From the IMG/VR virus record IMGVR_UViG_3300029288_007068: a DNA stretch of 64,000 bases; one strand, 5' to 3'. Position numbers and translations under genes: made by a program. Each line of letters opens with the position of its first letter. The first letter of the stretch is position 1. This document shows, piece after piece, positions 4,812 through 40,561 of this stretch. The stretch comes from a virus (taxonomy: Duplodnaviria; Heunggongvirae; Uroviricota; Caudoviricetes). The notes below the pieces were generated by a model. It made no database searches and had not been told where the DNA came from. It saw only the letters and a list, made by a program, of their open reading frames with translations.

Positions 4812-4850
4812 ATTTACGTTCTCCTATAGATTTTTGTTTTTTTCTTAAGA

Positions 4851-6380: not shown

Positions 6381-7497
6381 TATCTGTATCTATATCGCCG
6401 AGCCCATCTTGCCTCTTTGGCTCTCCATAGATAAGGTGATTGATTCCATCTTTGTATGTTTCTTTGTTCTTTCGATAAACCGGCTGTAATCTCAAAATCT
6501 TGTTAATGATGTCATCGAAACACTCATCATCTTGAACCATGACATTGACATAATCATTCCATCTCTTTCTGACATAGACGTTATGTAAAAGCATGGGATA
6601 ATAATTATTAATCATTTCATTAACTGTGTGCTTTGAACAAACCGGACAATCACATGGATTTGGACCATCCATATCAAACTTAACTTGTGCTTCTAAATTC
6701 TTTTTGGTATAAGAAAGCGAACTCAAGTAATATGGGTCGTGATACTTACCCATCATCAAACCCATGGCGGCACTTGATGTATCATATGTGTAAAATCTTT
6801 TAAACTTGTGAGCCATCTTTGCAAATATTACAACAAGCAATGGCTCACACTTACCAAGAAAATGGAAATTAGTCCCAATCTCTTTCGCAAATTGCAATTG
6901 AGAAAGCCAGTTTTGTTGATACGCGGGATTAAATGAAGACCACATTGGAAACGTATAACCGGGAAACTCACCATAAGTTTTCGTTAGGTGCTCGTGCCAC
7001 TTCATCATATCGTTATAATTTCCACCTTGAATGACCGCCCATATTTGAGTATCTTTATAACCTTCTGACTTATATTCTTCTAACTTAGATGCGGCAGTCC
7101 AAGCATTAGCATTTGATATCTCCATGTATTTTTTAAAGTCATCTTCTGGGTAATATTTTAAGTTATCTACTTCTGAACGATAAGCGTATGCTGGAACATC
7201 TACAGTAAAAGCAACGTTGGCTTTGATTTTCTTTACTTGCCATTCCAAGACATCTAAACAAGAAACCTTTTTACCCAACTTACTAATTTGAAACCCACCT
7301 GAATCAGCAACTATATAATCAGCTTCTGGGAAATCTGCGTCTCGAGTTTTATTCATTCCCGTAACGAAAGGTGACGCAAAGACATATGGATAATAAAAAT
7401 AGGGATTATCTTTATACCAATGCATTGCCCGCCGCCATTCTTCACGCTTGAATGTAATGCTGACAGGCATATAAATTGTGCCTTTTCTCTCTGCCAC
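6367..7497 (-). CDS. tRNA-guanine transglycosylase family protein (phage DpdA-like DNA 7-deazaguanine transglycosylase)
   Basis: Catalytic-aspartate motif ADSGGFQ and C-terminal zinc site CDCPVCSKH (CxCxxC...H), both typical of the TGT superfamily. Adjacent to folE and queE. Confidence 0.6.
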   Translation of the reverse strand: MAERKGTIYMPVSITFKREEWRRAMHWYKDNPYFYYPYVFASPFVTGMNKTRDADFPEADYIVADSGGFQISKLGKKVSCLDVLEWQVKKIKANVAFTVDVPAYAYRSEVDNLKYYPEDDFKKYMEISNANAWTAASKLEEYKSEGYKDTQIWAVIQGGNYNDMMKWHEHLTKTYGEFPGYTFPMWSSFNPAYQQNWLSQLQFAKEIGTNFHFLGKCEPLLVVIFAKMAHKFKRFYTYDTSSAAMGLMMGKYHDPYYLSSLSYTKKNLEAQVKFDMDGPNPCDCPVCSKHTVNEMINNYYPMLLHNVYVRKRWNDYVNVMVQDDECFDDIINKILRLQPVYRKNKETYKDGINHLIYGEPKRQDGLGDIDTDNEWN

Positions 7498-7883: not shown

Positions 7884-8495
7884 TCACTCACGCTCACATA
7901 TTGATATCAAGTTCAATACTTCTTGACGAGCACCATTGTTTGTTTTAAATGCACCCCGAACTTCTGATGTAATGGTTCTTGTTGTATCATTTTTGGTTTC
8001 CCTTGATGACACACAAAGATGTTTTGCATCCACCACAACCATAACTCCTCTACATTCTAATGTTTTATATAAGCCGTCGGCTATCTGTTGTGTCATGCGT
8101 TCTTGAATTTGGAGTCTTCTGGCATAAATCTCAACAAGCTTAACTAATTTATCAAGACCAGTTACATATTTTGATGGGATATAAGCAATATACGCTTTTC
8201 CAAAGAAAGGCGCCATATGATGTTCACAAAATGAATAAAAAGAAATTGGTCCTTCTACCACTATTCCACAAGTTTCAGTAAACTGACGATTTAAAACATC
8301 TGCTGGTTTAAAATCATATCCACCAAACCACTCTTCGTATGCTTTAGCGACACGATATGGAGTTGCTTTAAGTCCTTCCCTATCTGGGTTTTCTCCTATT
8401 TCTCTTAAAAGAGTTTTGACAGCAGAATGAATATATTTGTTATTACGTAAATTTTGACGACACTCTTTGATTTCCATTAAACAACCTCTCGCCAC
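7884..8495 (-). CDS. folE: GTP cyclohydrolase I
   Basis: FolE signatures CEHHMAPF and QERMTQQIA. Length 203 aa. Confidence 0.8.
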   Translation of the reverse strand: MARGCLMEIKECRQNLRNNKYIHSAVKTLLREIGENPDREGLKATPYRVAKAYEEWFGGYDFKPADVLNRQFTETCGIVVEGPISFYSFCEHHMAPFFGKAYIAYIPSKYVTGLDKLVKLVEIYARRLQIQERMTQQIADGLYKTLECRGVMVVVDAKHLCVSSRETKNDTTRTITSEVRGAFKTNNGARQEVLNLISICERE

Positions 8496-8729: not shown

Positions 8730-8791
8730 ATTTATTCCTCTTAATTTCCAAATATGTTGGTAATATATAAATTTTTAGATTGTCTTAATAG

Positions 8792-8923
8792 TTTAAAATT
8801 CTTCTGAATACATCTTTCTATACTTCTTATAGTGTTCTCGACAACAGAAGTTATGCTTTGTATGATAAACCGATTCCCGGCTTTTCTCAAATTTCTTTAG
8901 ACAATAATCACAATTGACTTTCA
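8792..8923 (-). CDS. Small zinc-finger protein (43 aa), absent from the ORF track
   Basis: Hand-translated: MKVNCDYCLKKFEKSRESVYHTKHNFCCREHYKKYRKMYSEEF. SD GGAGAAAA upstream. Confidence 0.3.
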
Positions 8924-9189
8924 TTTTTCTCCTTCTTCCTTTTACGCCACCGGGTAACTCTCTCAACATTTTTCTTTCTATTCATCTCATTGGCGCATTC
9001 TTCCGAACAATACCTTGTAACTTTTGTTCCATAATAATAGAAATCACAATCGGGATTAAGACACTTTTTGAGTTTTACCCTCTTCATCCTTCCTACTCGA
9101 TACTTTTTCTTTTTTATACACTCAGAACATTGCTTGTTATGACATGACTTCCCACAAGTCAAACATCTAATTACTTTTTTATACACCAC
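8908..9189 (-). CDS. Cys-rich basic zinc-ribbon protein
   Basis: CLTCGKSCHNKQCSECIKKKK and CLNPDCDF...CSEECANE motifs. Confidence 0.4.
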   Translation of the reverse strand: MVYKKVIRCLTCGKSCHNKQCSECIKKKKYRVGRMKRVKLKKCLNPDCDFYYYGTKVTRYCSEECANEMNRKKNVERVTRWRKRKKEKNESQL

Positions 9190-9841
9190 GTTTATTCCCC
9201 CACAATGTAATTTGCAGGCGCGGCGTTATTCTTCCATATCCAATTTCTTTAACCCACTCGACAATTTGAAGCATCTTAGAATTGATATCTTGTTCGTTTG
9301 TTCCTTCCGGCATAAAGTAGATGTTATCTTTGACATTTATGAGTGCACATATTCGTAGCACTTCATCGAAATCCTTCCGGTCACGAATGACGAATTTAAA
9401 TGCGTCAGCTTGCAGTGACCATTTACGAAGGACATCCAAATAGCGAGGATTGAGAAAGTCCGGTTTTGGGCTGACGATAAAGGTACAAAAGCCTATGATG
9501 AGAGGGCGGTAGATAGTACCGTTAGTTTCAATGTAAATGGTTTTACCGGTCTTGAAGAGTTCTTTAACAAGGTCTTCAATTTGAGGTTGAAGGAGAGGCT
9601 CACCACCGGTGATAACTATGTTCTGACATCTATCATCGATAAGGTCTATGATTTCACTTATCTGGAGGTCTTGTCCATCTTTCGCATATTTGCTGTCACA
9701 GAAATCACAAGTAAGGTTACAACCAGACAAACGAATGAACCAAGCTGGCATTCCTATTTGTGAACCTTCGCCCTGGATAGAATAAAAAGTTTCTGAAATT
9801 TTCATATCAACCCTTCCTATCTGGTGCCCAACCCTCAACAA
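9179..9841 (-). CDS. queE: 7-carboxy-7-deazaguanine synthase (radical SAM)
   Basis: Radical-SAM cluster motif in FIRLSGCNLTCDFCDSKY (CxxxCxxC in a QueE-like context). Length 220 aa. Confidence 0.7.
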   Translation of the reverse strand: MLRVGHQIGRVDMKISETFYSIQGEGSQIGMPAWFIRLSGCNLTCDFCDSKYAKDGQDLQISEIIDLIDDRCQNIVITGGEPLLQPQIEDLVKELFKTGKTIYIETNGTIYRPLIIGFCTFIVSPKPDFLNPRYLDVLRKWSLQADAFKFVIRDRKDFDEVLRICALINVKDNIYFMPEGTNEQDINSKMLQIVEWVKEIGYGRITPRLQITLWGNKRGV

Positions 9842-10400
9842 AAGATTTAATCTCTACCCTATCAGCTTCAGTAAATGGTATATTAAGGTAGTGTTGTAAA
9901 GATATAATTTGAGTGTGACCCTGAGACAAAGTTATCATAGCAATATACTCAGGATAGAAAAAGAGCAACCACGATTCCCATGTCTTCCTGGTAGTCTTTA
10001 CTGATAACCCCTCTGGAGATAGTCCAACCTTTTCTGCCCAAGATTTAAGATTCATCCCCCAACTTTGTGTTGTTGGGACGTGGGTATTGATATTTTGAAA
10101 AAACTGAACTATCATTTTCCCTTGGTTATTCAATCTCACCCAACGTTCTTGTTGTGTTCTTGCTTTTTTAAGACACGCCTCTTTTGGAAGATGAACGAAA
10201 TCCCCATCAAACCACTCTCTATGCACTTGAAATCGTTGCATCTCTACATATCTCATACCGGTGTAAAGCATGGTTTGTAAAATTATTTTATAGTCCATTT
10301 TTTGACAACCATTCAATAAAGCTCGAAACTCTTTTGGCCGTAAAATGCGGGTTCCATTCTTTATGATGGGTCTCCTAAACTCTTCTTCTGTTGGAAACAT
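9807..10400 (-). CDS. Small tyrosine recombinase / integrase (catalytic domain only)
   Basis: Box I-like LQTMLYTGMRYVEMQRF with a conserved Arg. C-terminal LSQGHTQIISLQHYLN fits the LGH-x-x-x-T-x-x-Y tyrosine-recombinase box II pattern. Confidence 0.45.
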   Translation of the reverse strand: MFPTEEEFRRPIIKNGTRILRPKEFRALLNGCQKMDYKIILQTMLYTGMRYVEMQRFQVHREWFDGDFVHLPKEACLKKARTQQERWVRLNNQGKMIVQFFQNINTHVPTTQSWGMNLKSWAEKVGLSPEGLSVKTTRKTWESWLLFFYPEYIAMITLSQGHTQIISLQHYLNIPFTEADRVEIKSFVEGWAPDRKG

Positions 10401-17094: not shown

Positions 17095-17126
17095 ATATAT
17101 AAGGATTTTGGTTAGTTTAATAGTTA
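17095..17126 (-). promoter_or_regulatory. Class-1 bipartite promoter motif
   Basis: Minus strand AACTATTAA, 14 nt, CCTTATATA, upstream of 17065. Confidence 0.5.
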
Positions 17127-18514: not shown

Positions 18515-18546
18515 TATATAAAGGTTTATGACGCCTTAATAGTTTC
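18515..18546 (-). promoter_or_regulatory. Class-1 bipartite promoter motif
   Basis: Minus strand AACTATTAAG, 14 nt, TTATATATG. A second TTTATATATAAG lies closer to the ATG at 18465. Confidence 0.5.
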
Positions 18547-18548: not shown

Positions 18549-19250
18549 TTATATACGTATACCCTTTATTAAGACATAACCACAGAAAGGCTTAAAAGTC
18601 TTATATTTTAATAAGACGTTATCCAATCTAACTATGAGTTTCAATACCTTCCTTACAATTGGTTTTATGGCGTTTGGAAGGCGGGATATTACATGAGGCA
18701 TCGAATAAGATATTAGCCAATAGTATTTAAGCTCTGTTATGGTAAAATATTCCTTTATTTTACCTTCAAGGACAGAGGGCTTAAACGGGCGTTCACTTTC
18801 CTCATGACTCATAGTCGGGAATGCCTTTCTTATTATGTAAGCGATGGGGTTTAGGCTCCCAGGTTCTTCTACTAATATTTGTCCACCAGGCTTTAAGATA
18901 CGATGTATCTCCTTTAACGCCAAATCCAAATTGTCAGGCACATGATGTAATATCGCCCTCGCCAAGACAACATCAAAGGTTTCATCTTTAAAAGGCATAT
19001 TGAGTATGTTGCCTTGTATTGGCGTTATTCCTGGTAAGTGCATCCCATCCGCTCCTACCATTATACTCCGGTCTATGTCGATTGATACAATTGTTGTGGT
19101 TTCGCTTTTTAATTGCTTAGCGAACTTTCCATTATTTCCTCCTAAATCAATTATATAACTTTTGGCTGGTAGTTGTAACTCTAATGGTTTAGTCCAAAGT
19201 TCATTTCCCAAAATCCGGACTGATTCTTTATCAACCTTATACTGTAACAT
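18549..19250 (-). CDS. Class I SAM-dependent methyltransferase
   Basis: Motif I IIDLGGNNGKF, VLARAILHHVPD, and post-I LKPGGQILVEE. Overlaps the OST gene end by 14 nt, so same operon. Confidence 0.55.
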   Translation of the reverse strand: MLQYKVDKESVRILGNELWTKPLELQLPAKSYIIDLGGNNGKFAKQLKSETTTIVSIDIDRSIMVGADGMHLPGITPIQGNILNMPFKDETFDVVLARAILHHVPDNLDLALKEIHRILKPGGQILVEEPGSLNPIAYIIRKAFPTMSHEESERPFKPSVLEGKIKEYFTITELKYYWLISYSMPHVISRLPNAIKPIVRKVLKLIVRLDNVLLKYKTFKPFCGYVLIKGIRI

Positions 19251-22200
19251 TGTGGGTATTCAACCCCGGCTTTGTAAAGATGGTTGTATCATATATTGAT
19301 GTTTCATTAACACCAAGTATTGATATCTTATAGTTTTGGGGTATCAGTTCAGTAAATTGGAAAGTATTGTTTCCCATAATCGGATATGTTTGTGATTGGT
19401 AATACTCTTTGCCCTCTATCATTAACGTTAATCCAGTTTGGTTTGTGTTAATGTTTACATCTAACGTCGACCAGTTAACGTCAAACGATACTGATTTATT
19501 ACAGGGAATATCTCTTCTTCCTTCTTCTTCTGTAACAATAATTGGTTGACTCATATCTAAAGTATTATCGGTAGTAAAGAGTCTTATCGTCAAGTTGCCA
19601 GCCGGCGCTATAAGACTAAACGTTCCATTTTCGTCAGTCATCCCATATCCATGTGGAATCCCAAAGTCATCAAAGACGTAAGCAAAGACGTATGGAAATG
19701 GTTGGTCACCAACTTTTACTGTTCCTGTGATTGTTGCGCCTTCATAGTATTTTGAGATAACAACAACCGGCGAATAGTATACTAATCTAAAATGTGTAAG
19801 CAGATACGTTGGCATCCTATTATCTGGGAACTCACCATAGCCCCAGTAAGTCTTATACCACAGAGTTTCGTAGAGAAGAGATTTAATTTTTACGTCTTGT
19901 TGCAAATCCATTTTATCTAACTCTTCTTGGGAAAGTTTTTGTAATTGTTGTAAAGTATAAAACTCATTCGTCTTGGCATCTCGCCACCACAAATAGTAAT
20001 AATCATCTTCTATGTAGTCCTGCGCAAAGCCCTGATATCCCCTGTCTGTAAGAAAAGTAAACACACCGAATATTTGAGTATCATATTGTTCTGTCCCATA
20101 ATAGCGGATAGAGTAACCGGTTGCATTTTGGATTGCCTTGTAAAACAACGTCATTTGTTCATCGGTCATATTTTGCATGAGTTTCCAAGAATCGTGATAC
20201 ATTGCGTTATCAGCCCGCTTTCTAAAGATAGTATTTCCATACTCCGGTGAATCCAGCGTATTGTAAGATGGACAGGTTGTCGGGTCTTCAATATACTGGA
20301 CTAAGATATCAGCGGATTGGATAGTTGACAAATTATAAAACGTAGCATTAGTTGGAAGATATGAACTTCGATAGATGGTTGGGTCTGATTGGTTAATTCT
20401 ATATTCATAGATTGGTGGTATATAAGTATTGAAAACTTCTTTTACTGTGTTTGAGAGTTTTCCGCCATTGTGGGATTTGGCGCCTTCACAACATCTAACT
20501 ATAAGAACTGACACTGCTTCTGTCTCAGTAGTAGAAAGTTTGAAGTTCCCTGATGCATACATTCCCACTTGATAGTTATCTGCCACGGTTGGATGCTTTC
20601 CCATAGCGGCTTCATAGAACCCGTAATCCCACCAGGATATAAATGCGGGTTTATCTTCATCTAAAGGTATTTCGGTATCTTGTAGTGATAACCAATAAAA
20701 AGCATCCGCCCAATAGATTTCTTTAGAAAGGGACGCACCGAAAGCGCCTTGCCATCCAGCACCAAAGTAATCTTCTTTCGACTCTGCTGGGATTGAAGCA
20801 TCTAACGCCAAAAGCGAGTTTGGTAAAATGAGTCCAACTATGATAAACAAAATCCCAAGAACTTGATATATCTTTATCGCCTTTCTCTTTCTCCAACCAC
20901 TCATTGACTTAAAGTTTTTAATTGTTTGTTTTAAGTTTAACTTATCAACTATAAGCATTATAAAGAAACCAGCTGCCACAGTAAACGCGGGAATGAGGTC
21001 ATTTAAGAATCGACCGGAAGTTGTTGTCAGGTAAAAAGTCAGGACAAATATATATAAGAAAAATATGCTCTCCGCTTTGAATTTCTCTTTATAAGACTTT
21101 ACAGCGTAAAGAACAAATCCACCAAGACCAATCCAATATAAAGCCGGACCGAAAGACATAATATTCTGACTCATTCCAAACGTATGCGCCTCTGCCACCG
21201 TCATTGATACTTTGCTCCCATAAATTCCTTCGCCAAACATCGTAATGGCAAGCTGAAGGAGAAACCCTTGTAACTTTATGATTCCTTGTGTGCCCAAGTA
21301 AAGGATTAACATCCCAACTGAACCTATTGATATCATAGATGGTATTGATATAATCCATGGAATATTTAGTTTGTTTATAACAAGGTATATTCCCAAGATG
21401 GCTATTGATATCAACATTGTTATAAAAGGCAAGTCAAATATTTGTCCTTGAATTAAAGCGTATGGGAAAGCAATTAAGTAAGCAACCAGGAAGAGCGCAA
21501 CAAAAGAATACATATTTTTGGTTGGAGTTTTCGACTTGAGAATATCAAAAATCATTATCACAAACATGGCAACCAAAGGCATCATAAAGGCAAGCTGGGA
21601 AGCCGCCCAAGTTAGATAAAGAGCACCAACGAATACGCCTGAAAGGGTGCCGTATAAAAGTGATGTAATCTGCTTCGGCTCTTTAAGCATTTTTATTATG
21701 AAGAAATAAAGACAGGCAAAGAGCAATAACACAAAGGAATCGTGGTCAAACAAGGCGAGGGAAGCGCCATGAGAACCTCCTATGTGTATGGGAATAAGGG
21801 CAACAAGGAAGGCAGCTATGAGACCAACCTTTCGGTTGAAAAGGTTTTTGGCTATTCCGTAAATTGGGAATATAAGTAGAGCCCCGTAGATGGCAGGAAG
21901 GAAAAGCATTGCCCATCCCATCGCATCTGTTGTAGTAGTGAAGGCACTAAGAGCTTGTGCAGTTGCAACTGCGACTAATGTAAACAGAGGCGGTCTGGAA
22001 CCTCTCTCACCTACGGGGTAGTTTAACAATGGGTCTGCGTCTCCGGAATGTGGTTGTGTAAAAGGATATGCTCCGGTTTGCATTGTAAGTTCAACTTGAC
22101 GCATATTCAGATATGGGTCGGGTCCTCCCAAGAAGAATCGTGTTCCCAGCGTCTCACCACTTGGATTAAAAGCGGCTCCCGACGTAAAGTTGAAGTAAGT

Positions 22201-22353
22201 TGTTAGAAACAATACCAAAGCAAATATACCTAAAAGCGTTATGGCGGTTATAATTGGTTTTCGGCTCTTTGATGTCTTTGGTTGTTCTTTTTTTGGTTGA
22301 ATAGATGTCTTAAATTTACCAGCTCTCTTTCTGCGCATGTTGTCTCTCCGCAT
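19237..22353 (-). CDS. aglB: Oligosaccharyltransferase of the AglB/STT3 family (1038 aa) with basic N-terminal extension and sequon-rich C-terminal domain
   Basis: First external loop GGPDPYLNMRQ (the DPYxNxR form typical of archaeal and eukaryotic STT3, coding around 22095..22125). About 13 hydrophobic helices. Universal catalytic motif SWWDYGFYEAAMG (coding 20617..20634). DK-like motif ADNYQVGMYASGNFK downstream. Confidence 0.7.
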   Translation of the reverse strand: MRRDNMRRKRAGKFKTSIQPKKEQPKTSKSRKPIITAITLLGIFALVLFLTTYFNFTSGAAFNPSGETLGTRFFLGGPDPYLNMRQVELTMQTGAYPFTQPHSGDADPLLNYPVGERGSRPPLFTLVAVATAQALSAFTTTTDAMGWAMLFLPAIYGALLIFPIYGIAKNLFNRKVGLIAAFLVALIPIHIGGSHGASLALFDHDSFVLLLFACLYFFIIKMLKEPKQITSLLYGTLSGVFVGALYLTWAASQLAFMMPLVAMFVIMIFDILKSKTPTKNMYSFVALFLVAYLIAFPYALIQGQIFDLPFITMLISIAILGIYLVINKLNIPWIISIPSMISIGSVGMLILYLGTQGIIKLQGFLLQLAITMFGEGIYGSKVSMTVAEAHTFGMSQNIMSFGPALYWIGLGGFVLYAVKSYKEKFKAESIFFLYIFVLTFYLTTTSGRFLNDLIPAFTVAAGFFIMLIVDKLNLKQTIKNFKSMSGWRKRKAIKIYQVLGILFIIVGLILPNSLLALDASIPAESKEDYFGAGWQGAFGASLSKEIYWADAFYWLSLQDTEIPLDEDKPAFISWWDYGFYEAAMGKHPTVADNYQVGMYASGNFKLSTTETEAVSVLIVRCCEGAKSHNGGKLSNTVKEVFNTYIPPIYEYRINQSDPTIYRSSYLPTNATFYNLSTIQSADILVQYIEDPTTCPSYNTLDSPEYGNTIFRKRADNAMYHDSWKLMQNMTDEQMTLFYKAIQNATGYSIRYYGTEQYDTQIFGVFTFLTDRGYQGFAQDYIEDDYYYLWWRDAKTNEFYTLQQLQKLSQEELDKMDLQQDVKIKSLLYETLWYKTYWGYGEFPDNRMPTYLLTHFRLVYYSPVVVISKYYEGATITGTVKVGDQPFPYVFAYVFDDFGIPHGYGMTDENGTFSLIAPAGNLTIRLFTTDNTLDMSQPIIVTEEEGRRDIPCNKSVSFDVNWSTLDVNINTNQTGLTLMIEGKEYYQSQTYPIMGNNTFQFTELIPQNYKISILGVNETSIYDTTIFTKPGLNTHNVTV

Positions 22354-22564
22354 ACTTCTTCCAATAATACTTCATTGTTGATTTTAAAAGGACTGGAGTT
22401 GCGTAGGCGGCAAACACTCCCCCCAAGAACATGCCACCAAGCAAACTCAGCAGTAATGCTTCTTTGTTTAGCGTAAACAAACCAACAATACATGGTGTTC
22501 CTAAAAGTATAGCTGTTGATATCAATATTATTAAGATAAGTTTCAATATTGTTACTATCCGCAT
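22316..22564 (-). CDS. Small two-helix membrane protein, first gene of the OST operon
   Basis: 82 aa, two hydrophobic helices. Its end overlaps the OST start. Promoter motif at 22598..22630. Confidence 0.4.
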   Translation of the reverse strand: MRIVTILKLILIILISTAILLGTPCIVGLFTLNKEALLLSLLGGMFLGGVFAAYATPVLLKSTMKYYWKKYAERQHAQKESW

Positions 22565-22597
22565 TCTTTAAAACCCTAATTACCTTTATGGCGCAAC

Positions 22598-22630
22598 TTA
22601 TATTAATAATTTTAGTTTGATTTAATAGTT
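22598..22630 (-). promoter_or_regulatory. Class-1 bipartite promoter motif driving the OST operon
   Basis: Minus strand AACTATTAAA, 14 nt, TTAATATAAG, about 33 nt before the ATG at 22564. Confidence 0.5.
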
Positions 22631-31432: not shown

Positions 31433-32551
31433 TCACTCTCTCACCCGCAATTTTCTTGACCGAGAAGTTGTTGGAGGAATAGCTGAATTTAGTATATCCG
31501 CAAAGGGAGGCTCAGAAACGGTCTCCCGCTTTGGTGGTATTGGAACTACTCCAGCCATTTTCTCGGTAATAATGTTTGTGATGTTTGTGTTTGGGTCTAT
31601 GACGTATTTGGTATTATTTTCTAAGGATGCTTGTATGGTCTCTAATTTTTTCAAAACCTGGGCATTATCTATAAACGATTTATTAATTAGATTAAATGCC
31701 TCTGCTTGACCTTGTGCTATTAAGATTTGTGATTGTTTCTTCCCTTCAGCTTCAAGAATCCATGCCTGTTTTGTTCCCTCAGCGTTTTTAATTGATGCTC
31801 TTCTTTCTCCATCCGCCTGTGTTTCTGCCGCTGTCGCAAAATCAACCGCTGACCTTTTTTCATTTTCAGCCTTCAAAACCTTGTTCATCGTATCCTGAAC
31901 ATCTTGAGGCGGAGTAATTTCTTTCATTTCAACTCGAACAATCTTAACTCCCCAAGCATCTGATTCCTTATCTAATACTTCAGCAAGCGCAACATTTAAC
32001 TTGTTCCTTTGACTATTAACATCTTTAAAGGGCATAGTACCAATAACATTACGAGCTGTTGTTTGTGCTAACTTAATTATCTGAGCCTCAAAGTCCTGAA
32101 CATTATATAAAGATTTTTTGACGCTTTCATCTTCGCTTCTCACTTGGTAGTAAACCACTAAATCTACTTTCGCATTAAGGTTATCTTCAGTAATAATCTC
32201 TTGTGGCTCGACATCCATCATCTTCTCTGTCAAATTAACTTTATACATTTTATCGACCACCGGAATAATAAGGTGAAAACCCTGACTGGCAACATTTCTG
32301 AACTTTCCAAAACGTTCAATTACACCCTTTTCCATAGGTCTTATTATTCTTATTCCCATTGATATTATCCATAAAGGGATAACTATCGCAAAAAACCAGC
32401 CTACATATACCAATACTTGTCCTAACATATTTCCTACTCCTTCTATATTTATATTTGGGAATTTTACTCCCATTATAGATAAACCTGTAACTAACATTCC
32501 TCCAAGAATTAAATAAATTATCATGCCTCCCCAAAATCCATTTTTAGTCAT
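31433..32551 (-). CDS. SPFH / band-7 (stomatin-prohibitin-like) membrane protein
   Basis: N-terminal TM helices followed by the PHB-domain consensus HLIIPVVDKMYKVNLTEKMMDVEPQEIITEDNLNAKVDLVVYYQV, then a long coiled-coil. Confidence 0.7.
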   Translation of the reverse strand: MTKNGFWGGMIIYLILGGMLVTGLSIMGVKFPNINIEGVGNMLGQVLVYVGWFFAIVIPLWIISMGIRIIRPMEKGVIERFGKFRNVASQGFHLIIPVVDKMYKVNLTEKMMDVEPQEIITEDNLNAKVDLVVYYQVRSEDESVKKSLYNVQDFEAQIIKLAQTTARNVIGTMPFKDVNSQRNKLNVALAEVLDKESDAWGVKIVRVEMKEITPPQDVQDTMNKVLKAENEKRSAVDFATAAETQADGERRASIKNAEGTKQAWILEAEGKKQSQILIAQGQAEAFNLINKSFIDNAQVLKKLETIQASLENNTKYVIDPNTNITNIITEKMAGVVPIPPKRETVSEPPFADILNSAIPPTTSRSRKLRVRE

Positions 32552-32924: not shown

Positions 32925-33147
32925 TCTTTTTCACCTTCCTAATCGCTTCTTTCATAGCTTTACTACAACAACCATCGCAACCATGAACATTGAATCCAAA
33001 TTTGTTATCTGGGTCGTTTCTGGCAAGCCACTCGGCGTTTGGATGACCGATGCCATGCTTACATATATCTTCTACTAAGCCAGTCTCGCGTATGAATTGC
33101 TGAACAGCCCATCGTGGTTTTTTGTATTCTACCATAAATTGTAACAC
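32905..33147 (-). CDS. Small Cys/His-rich protein
   Basis: CKHGIGHPN ... HGCDGCC motif. Confidence 0.3.
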   Translation of the reverse strand: MLQFMVEYKKPRWAVQQFIRETGLVEDICKHGIGHPNAEWLARNDPDNKFGFNVHGCDGCCSKAMKEAIRKVKKNGNKIN

Positions 33148-34133
33148 CTCAATACTCCTTCTGTTTCCTGTGTCCTTTTGATATCATATTCGCCATCTTT
33201 AAATCGCTTGACGTAGTTGGGAATCTCTTTCCATTCGCGCGGGTCGTTTTCAAACCAACCATAAGACACTATTCCACATGATTCCAAAGCAACCCATTTG
33301 CGGAAGCAAGCCGGACAATGACCACAACTTCCAAGAGTGTTTTCATCATAACAACTGACTGACGCTTCGAGAACTCTTAAAACATAATTCATAGGATAGT
33401 TATCAATAAACCACTGAATGATGTCTGTCTTCGTCATCTCCCAAAAAGGCGACTCTATTGATATCTTTGGTTCATCTTTCTTTTTTATGAAGTTCATGGC
33501 ATGTGACATAACATCAAAGGCTTCTGGAGTCTTGTCTTCTACGTGGTCGCCTTTGACGCCACACATATAAATCTTATTACCATAGTAAGATGCGAGCGTA
33601 GCCAAGAGCAAATTCCGGTTGGGTATATATGCTTTATCTCCAACTTCAAACTCATGTAGGCTTGGTCCTTCAATGAATTTGAGCTTCATGTTTGGGATTA
33701 CTCTACATAACTCGTAGAGGCAATGAATTTCTTTATAGGCATACTTATGACTCAAATCAATGTAAATCGCTTGTGGGAAGTTTAGGTAGTGAAGTCCTAT
33801 AATGCTATCAACCCCACCAGAAAGCAATAGGACTTCCCTATCTAATTGGTGACATGCTTTATCGTCTACGTACAATTCTGCTTGTGGTTTCCCAAGAATG
33901 AGTTCATCATAGGGAACATTGTTTTTCTTAAGCCATGCTTCGGTCACTTCTCTATCCTCTTCGTATCTGGCTGAATGGAGAACTATAGTATACCCGCGTT
34001 GTTTTAAGTCAAAGAGCGTATCTATATTATAGGAATTTGGCGTCCTACTTGAGTAATAGGAATCGCCAAAGCCCTGAGTCTCTTTCGTAATGATTCCATC
34101 TATGTCTACGACTTTTATCTTCATGCGTAACAC
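33129..34133 (-). CDS. queC: HAD-like phosphatase domain fused to 7-cyano-7-deazaguanine synthase
   Basis: N-terminal roughly 95 aa carry HAD motif I VVDIDGIIT and LGKPQAELYVDDKA. The remainder has the QueC PP-loop LLLSGGVDS, IPNRNLLLATLASYY, and the zinc site CGHCPAC. Confidence 0.7.
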   Translation of the reverse strand: MLRMKIKVVDIDGIITKETQGFGDSYYSSRTPNSYNIDTLFDLKQRGYTIVLHSARYEEDREVTEAWLKKNNVPYDELILGKPQAELYVDDKACHQLDREVLLLSGGVDSIIGLHYLNFPQAIYIDLSHKYAYKEIHCLYELCRVIPNMKLKFIEGPSLHEFEVGDKAYIPNRNLLLATLASYYGNKIYMCGVKGDHVEDKTPEAFDVMSHAMNFIKKKDEPKISIESPFWEMTKTDIIQWFIDNYPMNYVLRVLEASVSCYDENTLGSCGHCPACFRKWVALESCGIVSYGWFENDPREWKEIPNYVKRFKDGEYDIKRTQETEGVLRCYNLW

Positions 34134-34696
34134 ATTACTGTATACTCGTATTGCTCAAACGAGATATCACTACCATCCCACACTTCAACAAGCCAATACA
34201 TAGTTTTATGACCACTGTATTGAGAAACTGTATAATTCCCATCACCACCGTAGACTATGCTATGTTGAATCCAACTTCCATTGAAGAAAGCATAATAAAA
34301 AGTAATTTTTAAATCACTATCATCAACGTCTTCCACAAGGACACTCAAATTATGTTTGTAACCATAATATTTATGATATCCTGTCACGTTTATTAGAGTT
34401 ATCGTCGGTGGAACGTTTATCGGAGCATCTTGTCCATCTTCACCATCTACGCCAGCGGGTCCTTGTGGTCCGGTTTCTCCTTGTCTTCCTTTTGAGCCTG
34501 TTTCTCCTTTTATTCCTGGGTCACCCGGTCTTCCCTGTAGTCCTTGAATTCCCTGTTCGCCTTGAATTCCTCTCTGACCTTGAGGACCGACAAATGCGTC
34601 TGTTTGTTGCCAATAATATAGCACACCAGCATCAAGCAATAAGGCGGCGATTGCCACTACAATTATTGCTACAGCCCCTTTTCTACTTCCTACCAT
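34121..34696 (-). CDS. Collagen-like (Gly-X-Y repeat) protein with N-terminal membrane / signal segment; probable fibre component
   Basis: About 20 uninterrupted GXY triplets (GPQGQRGIQGEQGIQGLQGRPGDPGIKGETGSKGRQGETGPQGPAGVDGEDG). The C-terminal globular domain has NxS/T sequons. Confidence 0.65.
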   Translation of the reverse strand: MVGSRKGAVAIIVVAIAALLLDAGVLYYWQQTDAFVGPQGQRGIQGEQGIQGLQGRPGDPGIKGETGSKGRQGETGPQGPAGVDGEDGQDAPINVPPTITLINVTGYHKYYGYKHNLSVLVEDVDDSDLKITFYYAFFNGSWIQHSIVYGGDGNYTVSQYSGHKTMYWLVEVWDGSDISFEQYEYTVMCYA

Positions 34697-34727: not shown

Positions 34728-34759
34728 CTATATAAGGTTTTAGTATACTTTAATAGTTC
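34728..34759 (-). promoter_or_regulatory. Class-1 bipartite promoter motif
   Basis: Minus strand AACTATTAAA, 14 nt, CCTTATATAG, upstream of the collagen-like gene. Confidence 0.5.
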
Positions 34760-38616: not shown

Positions 38617-39393
38617 TCATAGTTCACCTGTCTTTGATATTCTTGTTTGTAATTTGCGTGTGACGTTATACCAGTCACGTGGTTGGGCAGTTGAAGGGAA
38701 GTGATAACATAAAGCATTTGTTAGAAGATGCCCTTTAAGGCGCGAATCTGTAAGCCAATATTCTAACATTATATCTTCACATGGCATGCCGTGGAGATGG
38801 CGCAGTTTGTATATAACCTTTGTAAACTTGTCGGGACTAATTCGATTCATAGCAATCATATAATGGAAGCCACCAGTGACACATTTGATTTCTTTATGCT
38901 TCTCCATATTATAGTAGTAGTGAGGGATGCCCCATTCAGACAACCCCGCGAAGGAGTTTTTTGTGTCGAGCGAATAATCGGAGTGAGCAAGAGCGTTATT
39001 GACATCAATGGCTACGCCGGCGACATAGATGACTTTAGAATGGGAACGAATGTGGTCGTAAAGAGTTTTGACGAATCCGGGCGTAAGCATTACGTCATCG
39101 TCTAACATAAGGAGATATCGGTAATGACGCTCACGGGCGTAGCGAAGGAGAAAGACGCGCGCGAGGGCAAGACTTCTATCTTTCATTGAGCGAATGTGTT
39201 TGACGTCGACGCCTTTGTGGAGTTGGAGCAAGTCTATCATTTGACGGACTATGTAGTTATCGGTGACTGGGGCGTCAGAGGAATCATATATAACTAAATC
39301 GAAGTGGATGGCTTGTTGCGACAAGGAGTAAAGAGGGAGAGGCAGAATATCGGAACGGTTTTTGGTGGGGATTGCTATAAGGATTTCATTCAT
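38617..39393 (-). CDS. Family-2 glycosyltransferase (GT-A fold)
   Basis: N-terminal IAIPTKNRSDIL and a DxD-containing LLMLDDDVMLTPGF motif. Confidence 0.55.
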   Translation of the reverse strand: MNEILIAIPTKNRSDILPLPLYSLSQQAIHFDLVIYDSSDAPVTDNYIVRQMIDLLQLHKGVDVKHIRSMKDRSLALARVFLLRYARERHYRYLLMLDDDVMLTPGFVKTLYDHIRSHSKVIYVAGVAIDVNNALAHSDYSLDTKNSFAGLSEWGIPHYYYNMEKHKEIKCVTGGFHYMIAMNRISPDKFTKVIYKLRHLHGMPCEDIMLEYWLTDSRLKGHLLTNALCYHFPSTAQPRDWYNVTRKLQTRISKTGEL

Positions 39394-39745
39394 TAGAACA
39401 ACTTTCCTTATGAACTAAAATCTTTTTAATTTTACAAAGACATAACGCTACTTCTTGGTATTGCTCGTCGGTTACACAATTATTAATTCTTTCTACTTCA
39501 GCAATTCTTCTTAACCATTCCAAAGGAGTTTCAGTTCGTACACAAACATCAATAGAAACCTTTTTACATAAATCTTCTTTTTCCTGTTGTGTATATAGTT
39601 GTTTCTTTTGGAGTTTCGTAAGAGAAACGTTTGATGCTTTGGGATTTAAAACAACAATGAATTTCACTTTACCATTTTTGAATCTACCGGATGTATCGCA
39701 GTAAAAGTCAGCCTCACTTATTTTGTTAAGTGTTTGTTCGTTCAT
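39386..39745 (-). CDS. Hypothetical protein
   Basis: ORF. Promoter motif variant at 39781..39812. Confidence 0.35.
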   Translation of the reverse strand: MNEQTLNKISEADFYCDTSGRFKNGKVKFIVVLNPKASNVSLTKLQKKQLYTQQEKEDLCKKVSIDVCVRTETPLEWLRRIAEVERINNCVTDEQYQEVALCLCKIKKILVHKESCSNE

Positions 39746-39780
39746 CTCATTCTCTCCTTTAATGACTTTATATGTTCTAC

Positions 39781-39812
39781 CTTTATAAGGGTTTAGGAAG
39801 GGTTAATAGTTT
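39781..39812 (-). promoter_or_regulatory. Class-1 bipartite promoter motif (variant TTATAAAGG)
   Basis: Minus strand AACTATTAAC, 14 nt, CCTTATAAAGG. Confidence 0.4.
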
Positions 39813-40561
39813 TAAAGAAAAGAATCGAGTTTTTGTATTCCGTTATCAACTTCTTTTTTTATGCCAAAAGTTATCCCTGTAGCATAAGCCTTTTTAATTG
39901 CCGTCTTTACCAAATACCACTCTAAATTATACTTCTTAACGAACTCGAACCACGCATTGCTGGAACCAACATCGTGGCTTATAATAAGACCGCCTTGTTT
40001 AACTCTTCCAATAGCCCATCTATATTCATCCCACATATTCTTATAAGTATGTGCAGAATCGTGACAAAAGAAATCAATTAACTCCCAATTTAAGTTTGGC
40101 AAAATATCCATTGATTTTCCTATTTTCAATTCCCATCTGGTTGATATATCTTTTGTAACGTAACAACCACATTCTTCACTATCCCAATTGTCTATACTAA
40201 TAAGTTTTCCCTGTTGATTCAATTTCATAGCATATAAAAATACAGCTGTTGACAAACCGAAATGAACTCCTGTCTCAACTAAAAGTTTTGGTTTATACTT
40301 TCGAATAAGACTAAAGAGAATCTGTAAAGTAGCAGAATACATCCCAAGGTCTCTTCCATACTTTTTATATTTTTCCTTTCTCATCTCTTGAAGATTCTGC
40401 CAAAACTTTGAGTTAAAAAGTTCGTTAGTATAATCTATCAACTCAGCTGTAGTTAGATATTTATCCAAAAAAGAAATATAAAGATTCTTTCTTTCTTCTT
40501 CAGTCATTTGATAAAGAATACGGTCTTTTTTCCAGGATTGCATTACTTCCACCAATACCAT
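39812..40561 (-). CDS. SAM-dependent O-methyltransferase of the TylF / CmcI (macrocin-O-MT) type
   Basis: LVETGVHFGLSTAVF (glycine-rich SAM loop as in TylF) and the DFFCHDSAHTY motif. Confidence 0.45.
   Translation of the reverse strand: MVLVEVMQSWKKDRILYQMTEEERKNLYISFLDKYLTTAELIDYTNELFNSKFWQNLQEMRKEKYKKYGRDLGMYSATLQILFSLIRKYKPKLLVETGVHFGLSTAVFLYAMKLNQQGKLISIDNWDSEECGCYVTKDISTRWELKIGKSMDILPNLNWELIDFFCHDSAHTYKNMWDEYRWAIGRVKQGGLIISHDVGSSNAWFEFVKKYNLEWYLVKTAIKKAYATGITFGIKKEVDNGIQKLDSFL

What the first reader, a model, noticed from the sequence alone, without database searches (positions are those of the whole stretch)
18549..22630. Virus-encoded AglB/STT3-type oligosaccharyltransferase in a three-gene operon driven by the virus-specific promoter
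The 1038-aa ORF has the full signature of the catalytic subunit of N-linked oligosaccharyltransferases: about 13 TM helices, a DPYxNxR first external loop, WWDYG, and a DK-like motif. The DPYLNMRQ loop is the archaeal/eukaryotic form, not the bacterial PglB form. The gene sits between a small two-helix membrane protein and a class I SAM methyltransferase. All three genes overlap, and they are preceded by the same AACTATTAA / TTATATA promoter used all over this viral genome, so this is a bona fide viral gene and not flanking host DNA. Viruses normally borrow the host OST. A virion-encoded AglB/STT3, with an N-terminal basic extension and an approximately 400-aa C-terminal domain that is itself studded with NxS/T sequons, would be an unusual, possibly new, viral glycosylation strategy.
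Basis: partly seen in the sequence, partly recalled or inferred. Interest (0 to 1): 0.9.

Follow-up and report, generated by a model that had tools for sequence, protein, structure and literature searches.

The report
AglB oligosaccharyltransferase operon in a virus-like archaeal element
A large virus-like genetic element of sediment archaea (Thermoplasmatota) carries its own, apparently active copy of the enzyme that attaches sugar chains to asparagine in proteins, which known viruses are thought to borrow from the host; I found no earlier report of a virus encoding it.

Summary
Three overlapping minus-strand ORFs lie between two copies of the window's recurrent promoter (AACTATTAA plus a TATA box):
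- an 82-aa two-helix membrane protein
- a 1038-aa AglB/STT3 oligosaccharyltransferase (true start probably Met6)
- a class I SAM methyltransferase

The large protein passes Pfam STT3. Its model matches Archaeoglobus AglB best, ahead of eukaryotic STT3 and bacterial PglB. All catalytic motifs are kept: GPDPY D79, D203-H-D205, TxxE388, R448 and WWDYG.

It belongs to a well-separated clade (99% NJ bootstrap) of about 70 proteins of roughly 1000 aa. In every context examined these sit on gene-dense, one-strand, virus-like contigs of up to 232 kb. A small 2-TM ORF always precedes the gene (8 of 8, against 0 of 65 cellular loci). In most relatives a large, variable glycan-synthesis island follows it.

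The nearest cellular proteins are Thermoplasmatota AglBs (34-40% identity), which points to the host and the gene's origin. The basic N-terminus and the sequon-rich C-terminus come from those cellular proteins and are not viral inventions.

Viral status is likely: two relatives are in IMG/VR, there are no cellular genes, and DNA-hypermodification genes are present. It is not proven, because no capsid or terminase gene was found. I found no published virus-encoded OST.

The parts
22598..22630 (-). Promoter of the unit: the element-specific upstream 9-mer AACTATTAA (22622-22630), followed after 12 nt by an AT-rich TATA-like box TTATTAATATAA (22598-22609). The start codon of the first ORF is at 22564.
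   Evidence: There are 14 exact 9-mers, all on the coding strand, against 1.5 expected. Ten of them have a canonical TATA box at fixed spacing, against 0 expected. Sequence read. The same 9-mer sits upstream of the orthologous operon in L001.
22316..22564 (-). Small membrane protein (82 aa) with two hydrophobic helices and a basic C-terminal tail. It overlaps the AglB start. It is a conserved companion of viral-type AglB and a candidate accessory subunit or insertion helper.
   Evidence: ORF and hydropathy. It has no Pfam, NCBIfam or PHROG hit. Positional counterparts of 78-139 aa sit directly upstream of AglB in all 8 viral-type loci and share a PxxFKDYIKxxWKKE-like tail at 15-28% identity. 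They are absent from 65 evaluable cellular loci.
19237..22353 (-). AglB/STT3-type oligosaccharyltransferase, 1038 aa as the longest ORF. The probable true start is Met6 at 22338.
   Evidence: Pfam STT3 and TIGR04154. PDB profile hit to AfAglB-L. Model and fold search. N-terminal alignment.
20788..22266 (-). Membrane domain of AglB (residues 30-522) with 13 predicted TM helices. It contains the catalytic residues: GPDPYLNMR (D79; 22099-22125), D203-H-D205 (21739-21747), TVAE388 in loop EL5 (21190-21201) and R448 (21010-21012).
   Evidence: Helices from the model. Residue correspondence with AfAglB D47, D161/H163, E360 and R426. The residues are invariant in 118 homologs. Translations checked.
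19240..20721 (-). Extracellular C-terminal domain of AglB (residues 545-1038). It holds WWDYG (20620-20634), a mixed alpha/beta core, and two C-terminal beta-sandwich domains (about 855-1037). It carries 13 N-x-S/T sequons.
   Evidence: The beta-sandwich part matches Ig-like and CarboxypepD_reg-like folds. Cellular relatives carry more such repeats (Pfam columns).
18549..19250 (-). Cytoplasmic class I SAM-dependent methyltransferase (233 aa, no TM helix). It overlaps the AglB stop by 14 nt. Inferred to be a glycan (sugar) methyltransferase.
   Evidence: Methyltransf_11/25/31/23. PDB relatives are generic and include a D-glucose O-methyltransferase. Its ortholog (45% identity) sits at the same position in L001.
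18515..18544 (-). The next promoter (AACTATTAA-N13-TTTATATA), starting 5 nt after the methyltransferase stop. It marks the 3' boundary of the three-gene unit.
   Evidence: The arrangement is the same in L001.
38617..40561 (-). Other glycan-related genes elsewhere in the window that may feed the same pathway: a GT2 glycosyltransferase (38617-39393) and a Methyltransf_24/CmcI-like methyltransferase (39812-40561).
   Evidence: The link to AglB is inferred only by analogy with relatives, where GT2 and methyltransferase genes lie next to AglB.
34121..34696 (-). Candidate substrate: a collagen-repeat protein with an N-terminal hydrophobic anchor or signal and 4 sequons.
   Evidence: Collagen Pfam hit. 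TM segment 1-30. It has 4 sequons against 0.48 +/- 0.66 expected. That it is glycosylated is inferred, not shown.

Best explanation
**What it is.** The 1038-aa gene encodes a catalytically competent AglB-type oligosaccharyltransferase.
- It is a long-standing, vertically kept gene of a family of large elements (contigs of about 120 to at least 230 kb) that are virus-like, one-strand and densely packed.
- These elements are associated with sediment and hot-spring Thermoplasmatota.
- The gene descends from a Thermoplasmatota-type AglB and has since diversified inside the element family.

**Expression.** It is transcribed from an element-specific promoter as one unit with a small 2-TM membrane protein and a cytoplasmic SAM methyltransferase.

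**Proposed mechanism.**
1. In the infected cell, element-encoded enzymes build or modify a dolichol-phosphate-linked glycan on the cytoplasmic face of the membrane. In this window these are the methyltransferase, a GT2 and a second methyltransferase. In relatives they are whole heptose, nonulosonic-acid, sulfation and LicD islands.
2. After flipping, the element's own AglB transfers that glycan to Asn in N-x-S/T sequons of proteins exposed on the outer face of the membrane.
3. The most likely targets are element-encoded membrane and secreted (virion surface or envelope) proteins, with host surface proteins modified as well.
4. A dedicated OST would be needed because the element's glycan donor differs from the host's.

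**Shown versus inferred.**
- Shown: homology, fold, intact catalytic residues, operon and promoter structure, clade structure, and gene neighbourhoods.
- Inferred: enzymatic activity, donor glycan, targets, the role of the small protein, and that the element is a virus.
For: **Enzyme identity.**
- Pfam STT3 above the gathering score and TIGR04154 at E=1.8e-46.
- The profile hits AfAglB-L at E=8e-28, with D47/D161-H163/E360/R426/WWDYG aligned to D79/D203-D205/E388/R448/574-578.
- The model has pLDDT 82 and 13 TM helices, and its best fold matches are the AfAglB structures.
- All catalytic positions are invariant in 68 viral-type proteins that are only 40-66% identical overall, which implies purifying selection.

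**Element-borne, not host.**
- The window holds 164 packed minus-strand ORFs (95% coding), with no tRNA and no Rfam hit.
- Its genes are for replication, recombination and 7-deazaguanine DNA modification: FolE, QueD, QueE, QueC, a TGT/DpdA-like protein, Hjc, a 5'-3' exonuclease, an Mre11-like protein (phrog_284, E=2e-42), helicases and a primase-polymerase.
- Viral-type AglB was found in similar contexts on contigs of 127, 232, 123, 48, 183 and 33.5 kb.
- Two relatives are IMG/VR viral contigs.
- The best GTDB genome hits are all Thermoplasmatota at 34-40% identity and lie in a housekeeping context.

**Clade.** Viral-type proteins separate from the rest with 99% NJ bootstrap, and divergence within the clade (0.83) is as large as among the cellular proteins (0.77).

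**Operon.** The promoter statistics and brackets are conserved in L001.

**Glycan pathway.** In relatives, epimerases, GHMP kinase + SIS + transaldolase, GT2, GT1, sulfotransferase, LicD, NeuB, CMP-NulO synthase and DegT lie immediately downstream of AglB.

**Small partner.** It is present in 8 of 8 viral-type loci and 0 of 65 cellular loci.
Against: - No major capsid protein, portal, terminase or other virion hallmark was detected by Pfam or PHROGs. This covers the 64-kb window, the whole 44.6-kb IMG/VR relative, and the flanks of six other relatives. The element could therefore be a non-viral extrachromosomal element.
- This window's subclade lacks the large glycan island next to AglB. Only a methyltransferase follows it, and the GT2 lies 16 kb away.
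- No initiating phosphoglycosyltransferase or flippase was identified in the window.
- The tree is unrooted, so the direction and number of transfers are not established.
- The score against TIGR04154 is below its curated cutoff, and AglB_core-like is below the Pfam gathering score.
- The DK/MI motif could not be assigned.
- Most window proteins have no signal or TM segment, and only one small secreted candidate shows clear sequon enrichment.
Confidence: 0.72

Rival explanations
1. The element is not a virus. It is a large plasmid-like or Borg-like extrachromosomal element of Thermoplasmatota that carries an aglB-based glycosylation island. That island remodels the host's own S-layer and surface glycans, and no virion is involved.
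For: - No capsid, portal or terminase gene was found anywhere examined.
- ParB-like, DUF932, integrase-like and TnsA-like genes occur in the family.
- AglB genes do occur on haloarchaeal megaplasmids.
- A related AglB (P0113) sits in a probably cellular glycan island with the same heptose genes.
Against: - Two relatives are classified as viral in IMG/VR.
- Every relative carries a complete 7-deazaguanine DNA-modification set with a DpdA-like transglycosylase, which established knowledge links mainly to viruses.
- There are phage-type recombination and repair genes, including phrog_284 at E=2e-42.
- About 164 tiny unidirectional ORFs fill 64 kb.
- Structural proteins of novel archaeal viruses commonly escape Pfam and PHROGs.
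Confidence: 0.18
2. The main biological role is host-surface conversion. The viral AglB decorates the host S-layer and receptors with a foreign or modified glycan, which blocks superinfection by the same or competing viruses. This would be analogous to phage-encoded O-antigen modification. Glycosylation of virion proteins would not be the main role.
For: - Glycan gene content next to AglB varies strongly between relatives, as expected for a surface antigen under diversifying selection.
- N-glycans on archaeal surfaces are used for virus recognition and evasion (PMC10384203, introduction).
- Few window proteins look like exported, sequon-rich substrates.
- AglB acts on any sequon exposed outside the membrane (established knowledge).
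Against: - This does not exclude virion glycosylation, since both would happen with the same enzyme.
- The element encodes a conserved membrane-protein module (56.6-59.2 kb) and a sequon-enriched anchored collagen-like protein that could be substrates.
- No lysogeny module was clearly identified. There is only a weak integrase-like hit.
Confidence: 0.35
3. The window is host chromosomal DNA, or an integrated genomic island, and the AglB is simply the host's own enzyme.
For: The closest cellular homologs are Thermoplasmatota AglBs, and the N-terminal MxRKR extension is shared with them. One viral-type protein is annotated in a MAG labelled Atribacterota, on a 5-kb contig.
Against: - There are no cellular housekeeping genes, tRNAs or rRNAs in 64 kb.
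- None of the 80 best hits among 185,579 GTDB species genomes exceeds 40% identity or has this context.
- The viral-type clade has 99% bootstrap support.
- Relatives of 123-232 kb keep the same one-strand architecture throughout the regions examined.
Confidence: 0.03
4. The protein keeps the fold but is not a transferase in vivo. For example, it might hydrolyse or sequester the host's lipid-linked glycans to shut down host glycosylation, or it might serve as a structural or adhesion protein through its beta-sandwich domains.
For: OSTs are known to hydrolyse lipid-linked donors when no acceptor is present (established knowledge). The C-terminal beta-sandwich domains resemble adhesin and tail-fibre modules.
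Against: Both the acceptor-binding motif (WWDYG) and all metal- and catalysis-related residues are invariant across a deeply diverged clade. Co-location with complete glycan-synthesis islands makes sense only if a glycan is transferred.
Confidence: 0.05

Closest known systems
Archaeoglobus fulgidus AglB-L (PDB 3WAJ/3WAK/5GMY/7E9S), the structurally characterised archaeal oligosaccharyltransferase
   Same: - It has the same overall fold: Foldseek E about 1e-22, with TM 0.60-0.66 normalised to the target.
- It has 13 TM helices plus an external C-terminal domain.
- All catalytic and acceptor-binding motifs align: D47/D79, D161-H163/D203-D205, TIxE E360/E388, R426/R448 and WWDYG.
   Different: - Sequence identity is only about 14-15%.
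- This protein has a basic N-terminal extension.
- The peripheral C-terminal domains differ, with two beta-sandwich domains here.
- The DK/DKi motif could not be located.
- This gene is carried by a virus-like element next to a small 2-TM ORF.
Cellular AglB of sediment and hot-spring Thermoplasmatota (Thermoplasmata/Thermoplasmatales MAGs, e.g. SM1-50; proteins P0071-P0120)
   Same: - These are the closest cellular relatives at 34-40% identity over the full length.
- They share the MxRKR N-terminal extension.
- The catalytic motifs are identical.
- Both have sequon-rich C-terminal domains.
   Different: - The cellular proteins are 1150-1400 aa, with extra CarboxypepD_reg-type repeats.
- They sit in a conserved housekeeping context and have no small upstream 2-TM ORF.
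- They are separated from the viral-type clade by a 99% bootstrap split.
aglB-based glycosylation gene islands of cellular archaea, including AglB on haloarchaeal megaplasmids (Haloferax lucentense NZ_CP104742, Halocatena salina NZ_CP096022)
   Same: An OST gene is clustered with glycosyltransferase, sugar-nucleotide and methyltransferase genes. As established knowledge, Haloferax AglP is a methyltransferase in such an island. Location on an extrachromosomal replicon is possible.
   Different: - The megaplasmid AglBs are only 22-23% identical.
- They sit on 365-578-kb non-mobilizable replicons of cultured haloarchaea.
- The element here has virus-like gene content and its own promoter motif.
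Virus-encoded glycosylation known so far: glycosyltransferases of archaeal viruses (e.g. STIV A197), the autonomous cytoplasmic machineries of chloroviruses and mimiviruses, and phage gtrABC-type O-antigen modification
   Same: In each case a virus brings its own enzymes to determine glycans on its particle or on the host surface. GtrC-type enzymes are also polytopic membrane transferases that use a lipid-linked sugar on the outer face of the membrane (established knowledge).
   Different: - None of these includes an STT3/AglB/PglB-family OST.
- A 2023 review-type introduction lists only 'putative glycosyltransferases' for archaeal viruses (PMC10384203).
- BFVD has no viral protein matching the catalytic domain.
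- The INPHARED phage and archaeal-virus records have no tblastn hit.

Membership tests
STT3/AglB/PglB oligosaccharyltransferase catalytic subunit (GT-C fold, CAZy GT66) | Significant match to the family profile (Pfam PF02516 STT3) above the curated threshold | tested here: met
   E=7.7e-14, 52.4 bits against a gathering score of 24.5, residues 78-467.
STT3/AglB/PglB oligosaccharyltransferase catalytic subunit (GT-C fold, CAZy GT66) | N-terminal domain of 13 TM helices followed by a soluble external C-terminal domain, with a fold superposable on solved OSTs | tested here: met
   The model has pLDDT 82 and 13 helices between residues 32 and 520. The top Foldseek hits are AfAglB, STT3A/B and PglB, all at probability 1.00.
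STT3/AglB/PglB oligosaccharyltransferase catalytic subunit (GT-C fold, CAZy GT66) | Catalytic acidic residues in external loop 1 and the second D-x-D/D-x-H motif (AfAglB D47, D161, H163) | tested here: met
   D79 (in GPDPY) and D203-H204-D205 align to them. They are invariant in 118 homologs.
STT3/AglB/PglB oligosaccharyltransferase catalytic subunit (GT-C fold, CAZy GT66) | WWDYG acceptor (+2 Ser/Thr) binding motif | tested here: met
   WWDYG at residues 574-578 (window 20620-20634), invariant in the family.
STT3/AglB/PglB oligosaccharyltransferase catalytic subunit (GT-C fold, CAZy GT66) | DK or MI motif completing the Ser/Thr pocket | tested here: inconclusive
   D721-S-W-K724 fits the DxxK pattern. 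D721 is nearly invariant (66 of 68), but K724 is present in only 19 of 68. Its position in the model could not be inspected because no coordinates were available.
STT3/AglB/PglB oligosaccharyltransferase catalytic subunit (GT-C fold, CAZy GT66) | Transfer of a lipid-linked glycan to Asn of N-x-S/T | not testable with these tools
   This needs an enzyme assay or genetic complementation.
Archaeal/eukaryotic type of OST (AglB/STT3) as opposed to bacterial PglB | T-I-x-E motif in external loop 5 (bacteria have S-V-S-E), and closer structural match to AglB/STT3 | tested here: met
   T385-V-A-E388. T and E are invariant and position 2 is I or V. It aligns to AfAglB TIAE. The fold ranking is AfAglB, then STT3, then PglB.
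NCBIfam TIGR04154 'oligosaccharyl transferase, archaeosortase A system-associated' subfamily | Score above the curated cutoff (450 bits) | tested here: not met
   159 bits, E=1.8e-46. It is homologous but outside this subfamily as curated, and no archaeosortase was seen in the window.
Pfam PF22627 AglB core domain | Score above the gathering threshold (27 bits) | tested here: not met
   20 bits at residues 566-617. Many relatives of the clade do carry the precomputed hit.
Virus (any realm) rather than another mobile element | Gene for a capsid or virion protein or a genome-packaging enzyme | tested here: inconclusive
   None was recognised by Pfam or PHROGs in the window, in the complete 44.6-kb IMG/VR relative, or in the flanks of other relatives. 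The most conserved unknown protein (149 aa) has no fold match.
Virus (any realm) rather than another mobile element | Independent classification as viral, and virus-typical gene content | tested here: met
   Two relatives are IMG/VR UViGs. The preQ0 pathway and a DpdA-like protein are present, as is a phage-type Mre11 exonuclease (phrog_284). There are no cellular markers.
aglB-based N-glycosylation gene cluster | OST gene adjacent to glycosyltransferase, sugar-activation or glycan-modifying genes | tested here: met
   In the window a methyltransferase overlaps AglB. In relatives, 6-12 glycan genes lie directly downstream.

The most novel reading that the evidence does not exclude
A whole family of large archaeal viruses carries a self-contained N-glycosylation system, which would be the first virus-encoded oligosaccharyltransferase. 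In this reading the conserved 2-TM mini-protein is an obligate second subunit. That would make it a heteromeric archaeal-type OST, reminiscent of the small Ost4-like subunits of eukaryotes. The virus would use it to write its own, rapidly diversifying glycan code onto virion and host surface proteins.
Probability: 0.2. Interest if true: 0.88.

Novelty: new variant of a known kind. Interest (0 to 1): 0.72.

Why it matters
- **State of the field.** N-glycosylation of archaeal virion proteins has so far been attributed to the host's AglB. Only soluble glycosyltransferases are known from archaeal viruses (PMC10384203).
- **What a viral OST would change.** An element-encoded OST, kept with intact catalytic residues across a deeply diverged clade and linked to variable sugar-synthesis islands, would mean some archaeal viruses control the final, protein-modifying step themselves. 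That bears on host range, immune-like evasion between viruses, particle stability, and the spread of glycosylation islands among archaea.
- **Experimental value.** It supplies about 70 compact (roughly 1000 aa), naturally diversified AglB variants, each with a candidate small partner protein. These can be tested directly for donor and acceptor specificity and are of interest for glyco-engineering.
- **Host marker.** It gives a marker linking an uncharacterised group of large virus-like elements to Thermoplasmatota hosts.

Tried and rejected
- **Known phages and archaeal viruses.** tblastn and megablast against 50,697 phage and archaeal-virus records found no match. Queries were AglB, 24 kb of the window, and two conserved core proteins.
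- **IMG/VR.** The single-protein search found nothing. Only the alignment-based search found two contigs.
- **Walking for structural genes.** I walked the whole 44.6-kb IMG/VR contig and scanned 20 of its proteins. They were helicases, a nuclease, membrane proteins and one Walker-A ATPase without a family; none was a capsid or terminase.
- **Beta-helix protein (62008-63930).** The homology search found nothing at 1e-10, and an exact look-up failed.
- **Exact look-ups of window proteins.** The look-up for AglB also failed. A 100%-identical 149-aa protein is recorded on a 141,209-bp contig that the tool does not display. That contig is probably the source, so the flanks of the window could not be read.
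- **The 149-aa protein as a capsid candidate.** It is the most conserved unknown protein. The model is all-alpha with pLDDT 71, and it has no PDB fold match with E below 2, so the idea is unsupported.
- **Beta-helix protein as a substrate.** Its 16 sequons are only marginally above what its Asn-rich composition predicts (10.8 +/- 2.8, P about 0.05), and it has no signal or TM segment.
- **N-terminal extension and sequon-rich C-terminus as viral novelties.** Rejected, because cellular homologs share both.
- **RNA genes and repeats.** There are no tRNAs, Rfam families or tandem repeats in the window.
- **Literature.** Eight full-text searches found no report of a virus- or phage-encoded OST/AglB/STT3. 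One 2026 archaeal-virus catalogue has no mention of it.

Full report
**1. What is in the sequence**

Between 22630 and 18544 on the minus strand lie three overlapping ORFs:
- 22316-22564, 82 aa
- 19237-22353, 1038 aa
- 18549-19250, 233 aa

The overlaps are 38 nt and 14 nt. Aligned homologs all begin at the position of Met6 (M-x-R-K-R...). The real start of the large gene is therefore probably 22338, which makes the first overlap 23 nt.

The 82-aa protein has two hydrophobic helices and a basic tail, and it matches no family. The 233-aa protein is a soluble class I SAM methyltransferase: Methyltransf_11 at E=2e-18. Its PDB relatives are generic and include a D-glucose O-methyltransferase.

**2. 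The large protein is an AglB/STT3 oligosaccharyltransferase**

- It passes Pfam STT3 at 52 bits against a gathering score of 24.5. It hits NCBIfam archaeo_STT3 at E=1.8e-46, but with 159 bits it is below that subfamily's curated cutoff of 450.
- A 28-sequence profile finds A. fulgidus AglB-L at E=8e-28. The alignment places D79, D203/H204/D205, T385-x-x-E388, R448 and WWDYG 574-578 on AfAglB D47, D161/H162/H163, the TIxE Glu360, R426 and WWDYG 550-554.
- These residues are invariant in 68 relatives of the same clade and in 50 cellular relatives. I confirmed them by direct translation.
- The AlphaFold model (pLDDT 82, pTM 0.75) has 13 membrane helices, a disordered EL5 loop, a mixed alpha/beta external core and two terminal beta-sandwich domains.
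- By Foldseek it matches the AfAglB structures first (E about 1e-22), then human, yeast and canine STT3, then C. lari PglB.
- The 'DK-like' motif is uncertain. D721-S-W-K724 exists, but the Lys is kept in only 19 of 68 relatives.

**3. The promoter and the operon**

AACTATTAA occurs 14 times in the window, always on the coding strand, against 1.5 expected. In ten cases a YTTATATA box follows 8-14 nt downstream, against 0 expected. An SD-like sequence and a start codon follow 25-45 nt later. This is the layout of an archaeal TATA promoter with an extra, element-specific upstream element.

One copy sits 58 nt upstream of the 82-aa ORF, where the TATA part is degenerate (TTATTAATATAA). The next copy begins 5 nt after the methyltransferase stop. 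The three genes therefore form one promoter-to-promoter unit.

In a relative whose AglB is 54% identical (L001, on a 127-kb contig) the same 9-mer occurs 8 times in 23 kb. It brackets the orthologous genes (small ORF, AglB, methyltransferase) in the same way. It is absent from cellular Thermoplasmatota loci.

**4. What kind of DNA this is**

- A greedy ORF call places 164 tightly packed ORFs on the minus strand, covering 95% of the window. There are no tRNAs, Rfam families or tandem repeats.
- Recognisable genes are for DNA transactions: a primase-polymerase-like protein, helicases, a 5'-3' exonuclease, the Hjc resolvase, an Mre11-like nuclease (phrog_284, E=2e-42) and a nucleoside deoxyribosyltransferase.
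- A full 7-deazaguanine pathway is present: FolE, QueD, QueE, QueC and a TGT/DpdA-like transglycosylase.
- There is also a GT2, further methyltransferases, an SPFH protein, a collagen-repeat protein and a beta-helix protein.
- Nothing matches the 50,697 GenBank phage and archaeal-virus records.
- Two contigs with a 43%-identical AglB are in IMG/VR.

Proteins of the same AglB clade were looked up on six further contigs of 127, 232, 123, 48, 183 and 33.5 kb. Each contig shows the same style of genome and a conserved block of genes:
- FolE
- a DpdA-like protein
- a GyrA-C-like protein
- four or five replication proteins, which match window 255-6380
- ERCC4
- the small 2-TM ORF
- AglB

A module of membrane proteins at 56.6-59.2 kb is also conserved. 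Its 149-aa member has 94 homologs at 43-100% identity. On one 123-kb contig it lies about 35 kb from AglB, as it does in the window.

I could not find a capsid, portal or terminase gene in any part that was accessible. The most conserved unknown protein has no fold match. I therefore treat 'virus' as likely (about 0.8) but not demonstrated. The alternative is a large non-viral extrachromosomal element.

**5. Where the gene comes from**

The database search returned about 70 proteins of 890-1160 aa at 40-66% identity. Next came Thermoplasmatota AglBs of 1150-1400 aa at 36-40% identity, which carry additional CarboxypepD_reg-type repeats.

Among one genome per GTDB species, the 80 best loci are nearly all labelled Thermoplasmatota or Thermoplasmata MAGs, at 34-40% identity. 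In them AglB sits between a PRPP-synthase-like gene and AMMECR1 and dihydroorotase-like genes, and no small ORF lies upstream.

An NJ tree separates the roughly 1000-aa clade from the rest with 99% bootstrap support. Divergence within the clade (0.83) is as large as among the cellular proteins (0.77). The tree is unrooted.

Cellular and element-borne proteins share the MxRKR N-terminal extension and the sequon-rich C-terminus. The most economical reading is an old capture from a Thermoplasmatota host, followed by long vertical history and trimming of the C-terminal repeats. The same evidence nominates Thermoplasmatota as the host.

**6. What it most likely does**

In four of the relatives' contexts (L087, L088, L093, L094) AglB heads a large glycan-synthesis island whose content varies between relatives:
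- NAD-dependent epimerases and dehydratases
- GHMP kinase, SIS isomerase, transaldolase and a nucleotidyltransferase (a heptose route)
- GT2 and GT1 transferases
- sulfotransferases
- LicD
- B12-radical-SAM enzymes
- in one case NeuB, CMP-NulO synthetase, DegT and a 2-epimerase (a nonulosonic-acid route)

A fifth context, L003, keeps only part of the heptose route (GHMP kinase, SIS, nucleotidyltransferase).

The window's own subclade keeps only the methyltransferase next to AglB, with a GT2 and a second methyltransferase 16-18 kb away.

From what is established about archaeal N-glycosylation, I infer the following sequence:
1. The glycan is built on dolichol phosphate at the cytoplasmic face. 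Methylation by AglP in Haloferax is a precedent for the methyltransferase step.
2. The glycan is flipped across the membrane.
3. AglB transfers it at the outer face.

On this basis I infer that the element specifies or modifies a lipid-linked glycan and uses its own OST to attach it to exported proteins. A private OST makes sense if the donor differs from the host's.

Substrates must be exposed outside the membrane. Candidates in the window are:
- the anchored collagen-like protein, with 4 sequons against 0.5 expected
- the conserved membrane-protein module
- AglB itself

Host surface proteins would be modified too, so superinfection exclusion is a plausible second effect or an alternative main one.

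The small 2-TM protein accompanies viral-type AglB in 8 of 8 loci and in 0 of 65 cellular loci. It may be an accessory subunit. This is speculative.

**7. Comparison with what is known, and novelty**

As an enzyme this is a clear member of the STT3/AglB family, though outside the curated TIGR04154 subfamily. As a viral function I found no precedent:
- Full-text searches returned no paper on a virus- or phage-encoded OST.
- A 2023 paper on archaeal virus glycosylation lists only putative glycosyltransferases for archaeal viruses.
- A 2026 catalogue of 3708 archaeal viral genomes does not mention it.
- BFVD contains no viral protein matching the catalytic domain. Its hits cover only the beta-sandwich tail, apart from one weak hit to a Nitrosopumilus spindle-shaped virus membrane protein.

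AglB genes do occur on haloarchaeal megaplasmids, at 22-23% identity.

I rate this a new variant of a known kind: a known enzyme and pathway in a new kind of carrier, with a new conserved partner gene. The literature check is limited to open-access text.

**8. Verdict**

The caveats are that virion genes were not found and that two of the features called unusual are inherited from cellular AglB.
- Interest is 0.72.

Noticed in passing
window 6367-7497, 7884-8495, 9179-9841, 33129-34133, 43729-44094 (all minus strand): A complete preQ0/7-deazaguanine pathway is present: a TGT/DpdA-like transglycosylase, FolE, QueE, QueC fused to a HAD/PNKP-like domain, and QueD. This implies hypermodified genomic DNA. 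The set is conserved in every relative examined.
   Followed up: partly
window 56623-59184 (minus strand); L215 4298-7531: A conserved module of small membrane proteins surrounds a 149-aa all-alpha protein (58345-58794). That protein has 94 homologs at 43-100% identity and is far better conserved than AglB. It has no Pfam hit and no PDB fold match. It may be a virion or morphogenesis core, but this is unproven.
   Followed up: partly
window 62008-63930 (minus strand): A 640-aa right-handed beta-helix protein (Beta_helix/NosD) has nearly the same FN(E/D)TTGxLGIYS...VW motif at both termini. It has no homolog at E<=1e-10 in 5.8 billion proteins and carries 16 sequons (10.8 expected). It looks like a fast-evolving receptor-binding or depolymerase protein.
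   Followed up: partly
window 34121-34696 (minus strand): A collagen triple-helix repeat protein has an N-terminal hydrophobic anchor and 4 N-x-S/T sequons against 0.5 expected. It is a candidate exported glycoprotein.
   Followed up: partly
window, 14 sites (e.g. 8785-8793, 17117-17125, 34750-34758, 55942-55950); L001, 8 sites: The promoter architecture AACTATTAA-N8-14-YTTATATA often starts within a few bases of the preceding stop codon. The 9-mer is conserved in the closest subclade (L001), is almost absent from more distant relatives (at most one copy each in L003-L006), and is absent from cellular loci. It is probably the site for an element-encoded transcription factor.
   Followed up: partly
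L087 13476-23021; L088 13043-23039; L093 13093-23093; L094 13072-23069; L003 13339-19765: Relatives carry large, mutually different glycan-biosynthesis islands directly downstream of AglB. They include heptose and nonulosonic-acid routes, sulfotransferases, LicD, B12-radical-SAM enzymes and even GAPDH- and transaldolase-like genes.
   Followed up: partly
P0121 (identical to window 58345-58794): An identical protein is recorded on a 141,209-bp contig, but the context tool returns only a 13-kb Logan contig (L216). Exact look-ups of AglB and the beta-helix protein fail. The 141-kb contig is probably the window's source, which implies a genome of at least 141 kb.
   Followed up: partly
P0064, P0202, P0203 (database names): Element-type proteins are annotated in MAGs labelled Atribacterota (AglB on a 5-kb contig), Thermoplasmatales, and Heimdallarchaeaceae (the 149-aa protein on 3.5- and 8.9-kb contigs). 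These are most likely binning artefacts of element contigs, but they leave the host assignment open.
   Followed up: no
window 31433-32551 and 9807-10400 (minus strand): There is an SPFH/Band-7 membrane-scaffold protein (E=2e-36) and a short ORF with a weak Phage_integrase hit (E=2e-4, below gathering). The second is a faint hint of integration ability.
   Followed up: no
BFVD entry A0A514K2W1 (Nitrosopumilus spindle-shaped virus, 326 aa): This is the only viral structure aligning to part of the AglB membrane domain (448 columns, TM 0.54 normalised to the target, E=9e-3). It could be a GT-C-like membrane protein in another archaeal virus, or a chance helical-bundle match.
   Followed up: no
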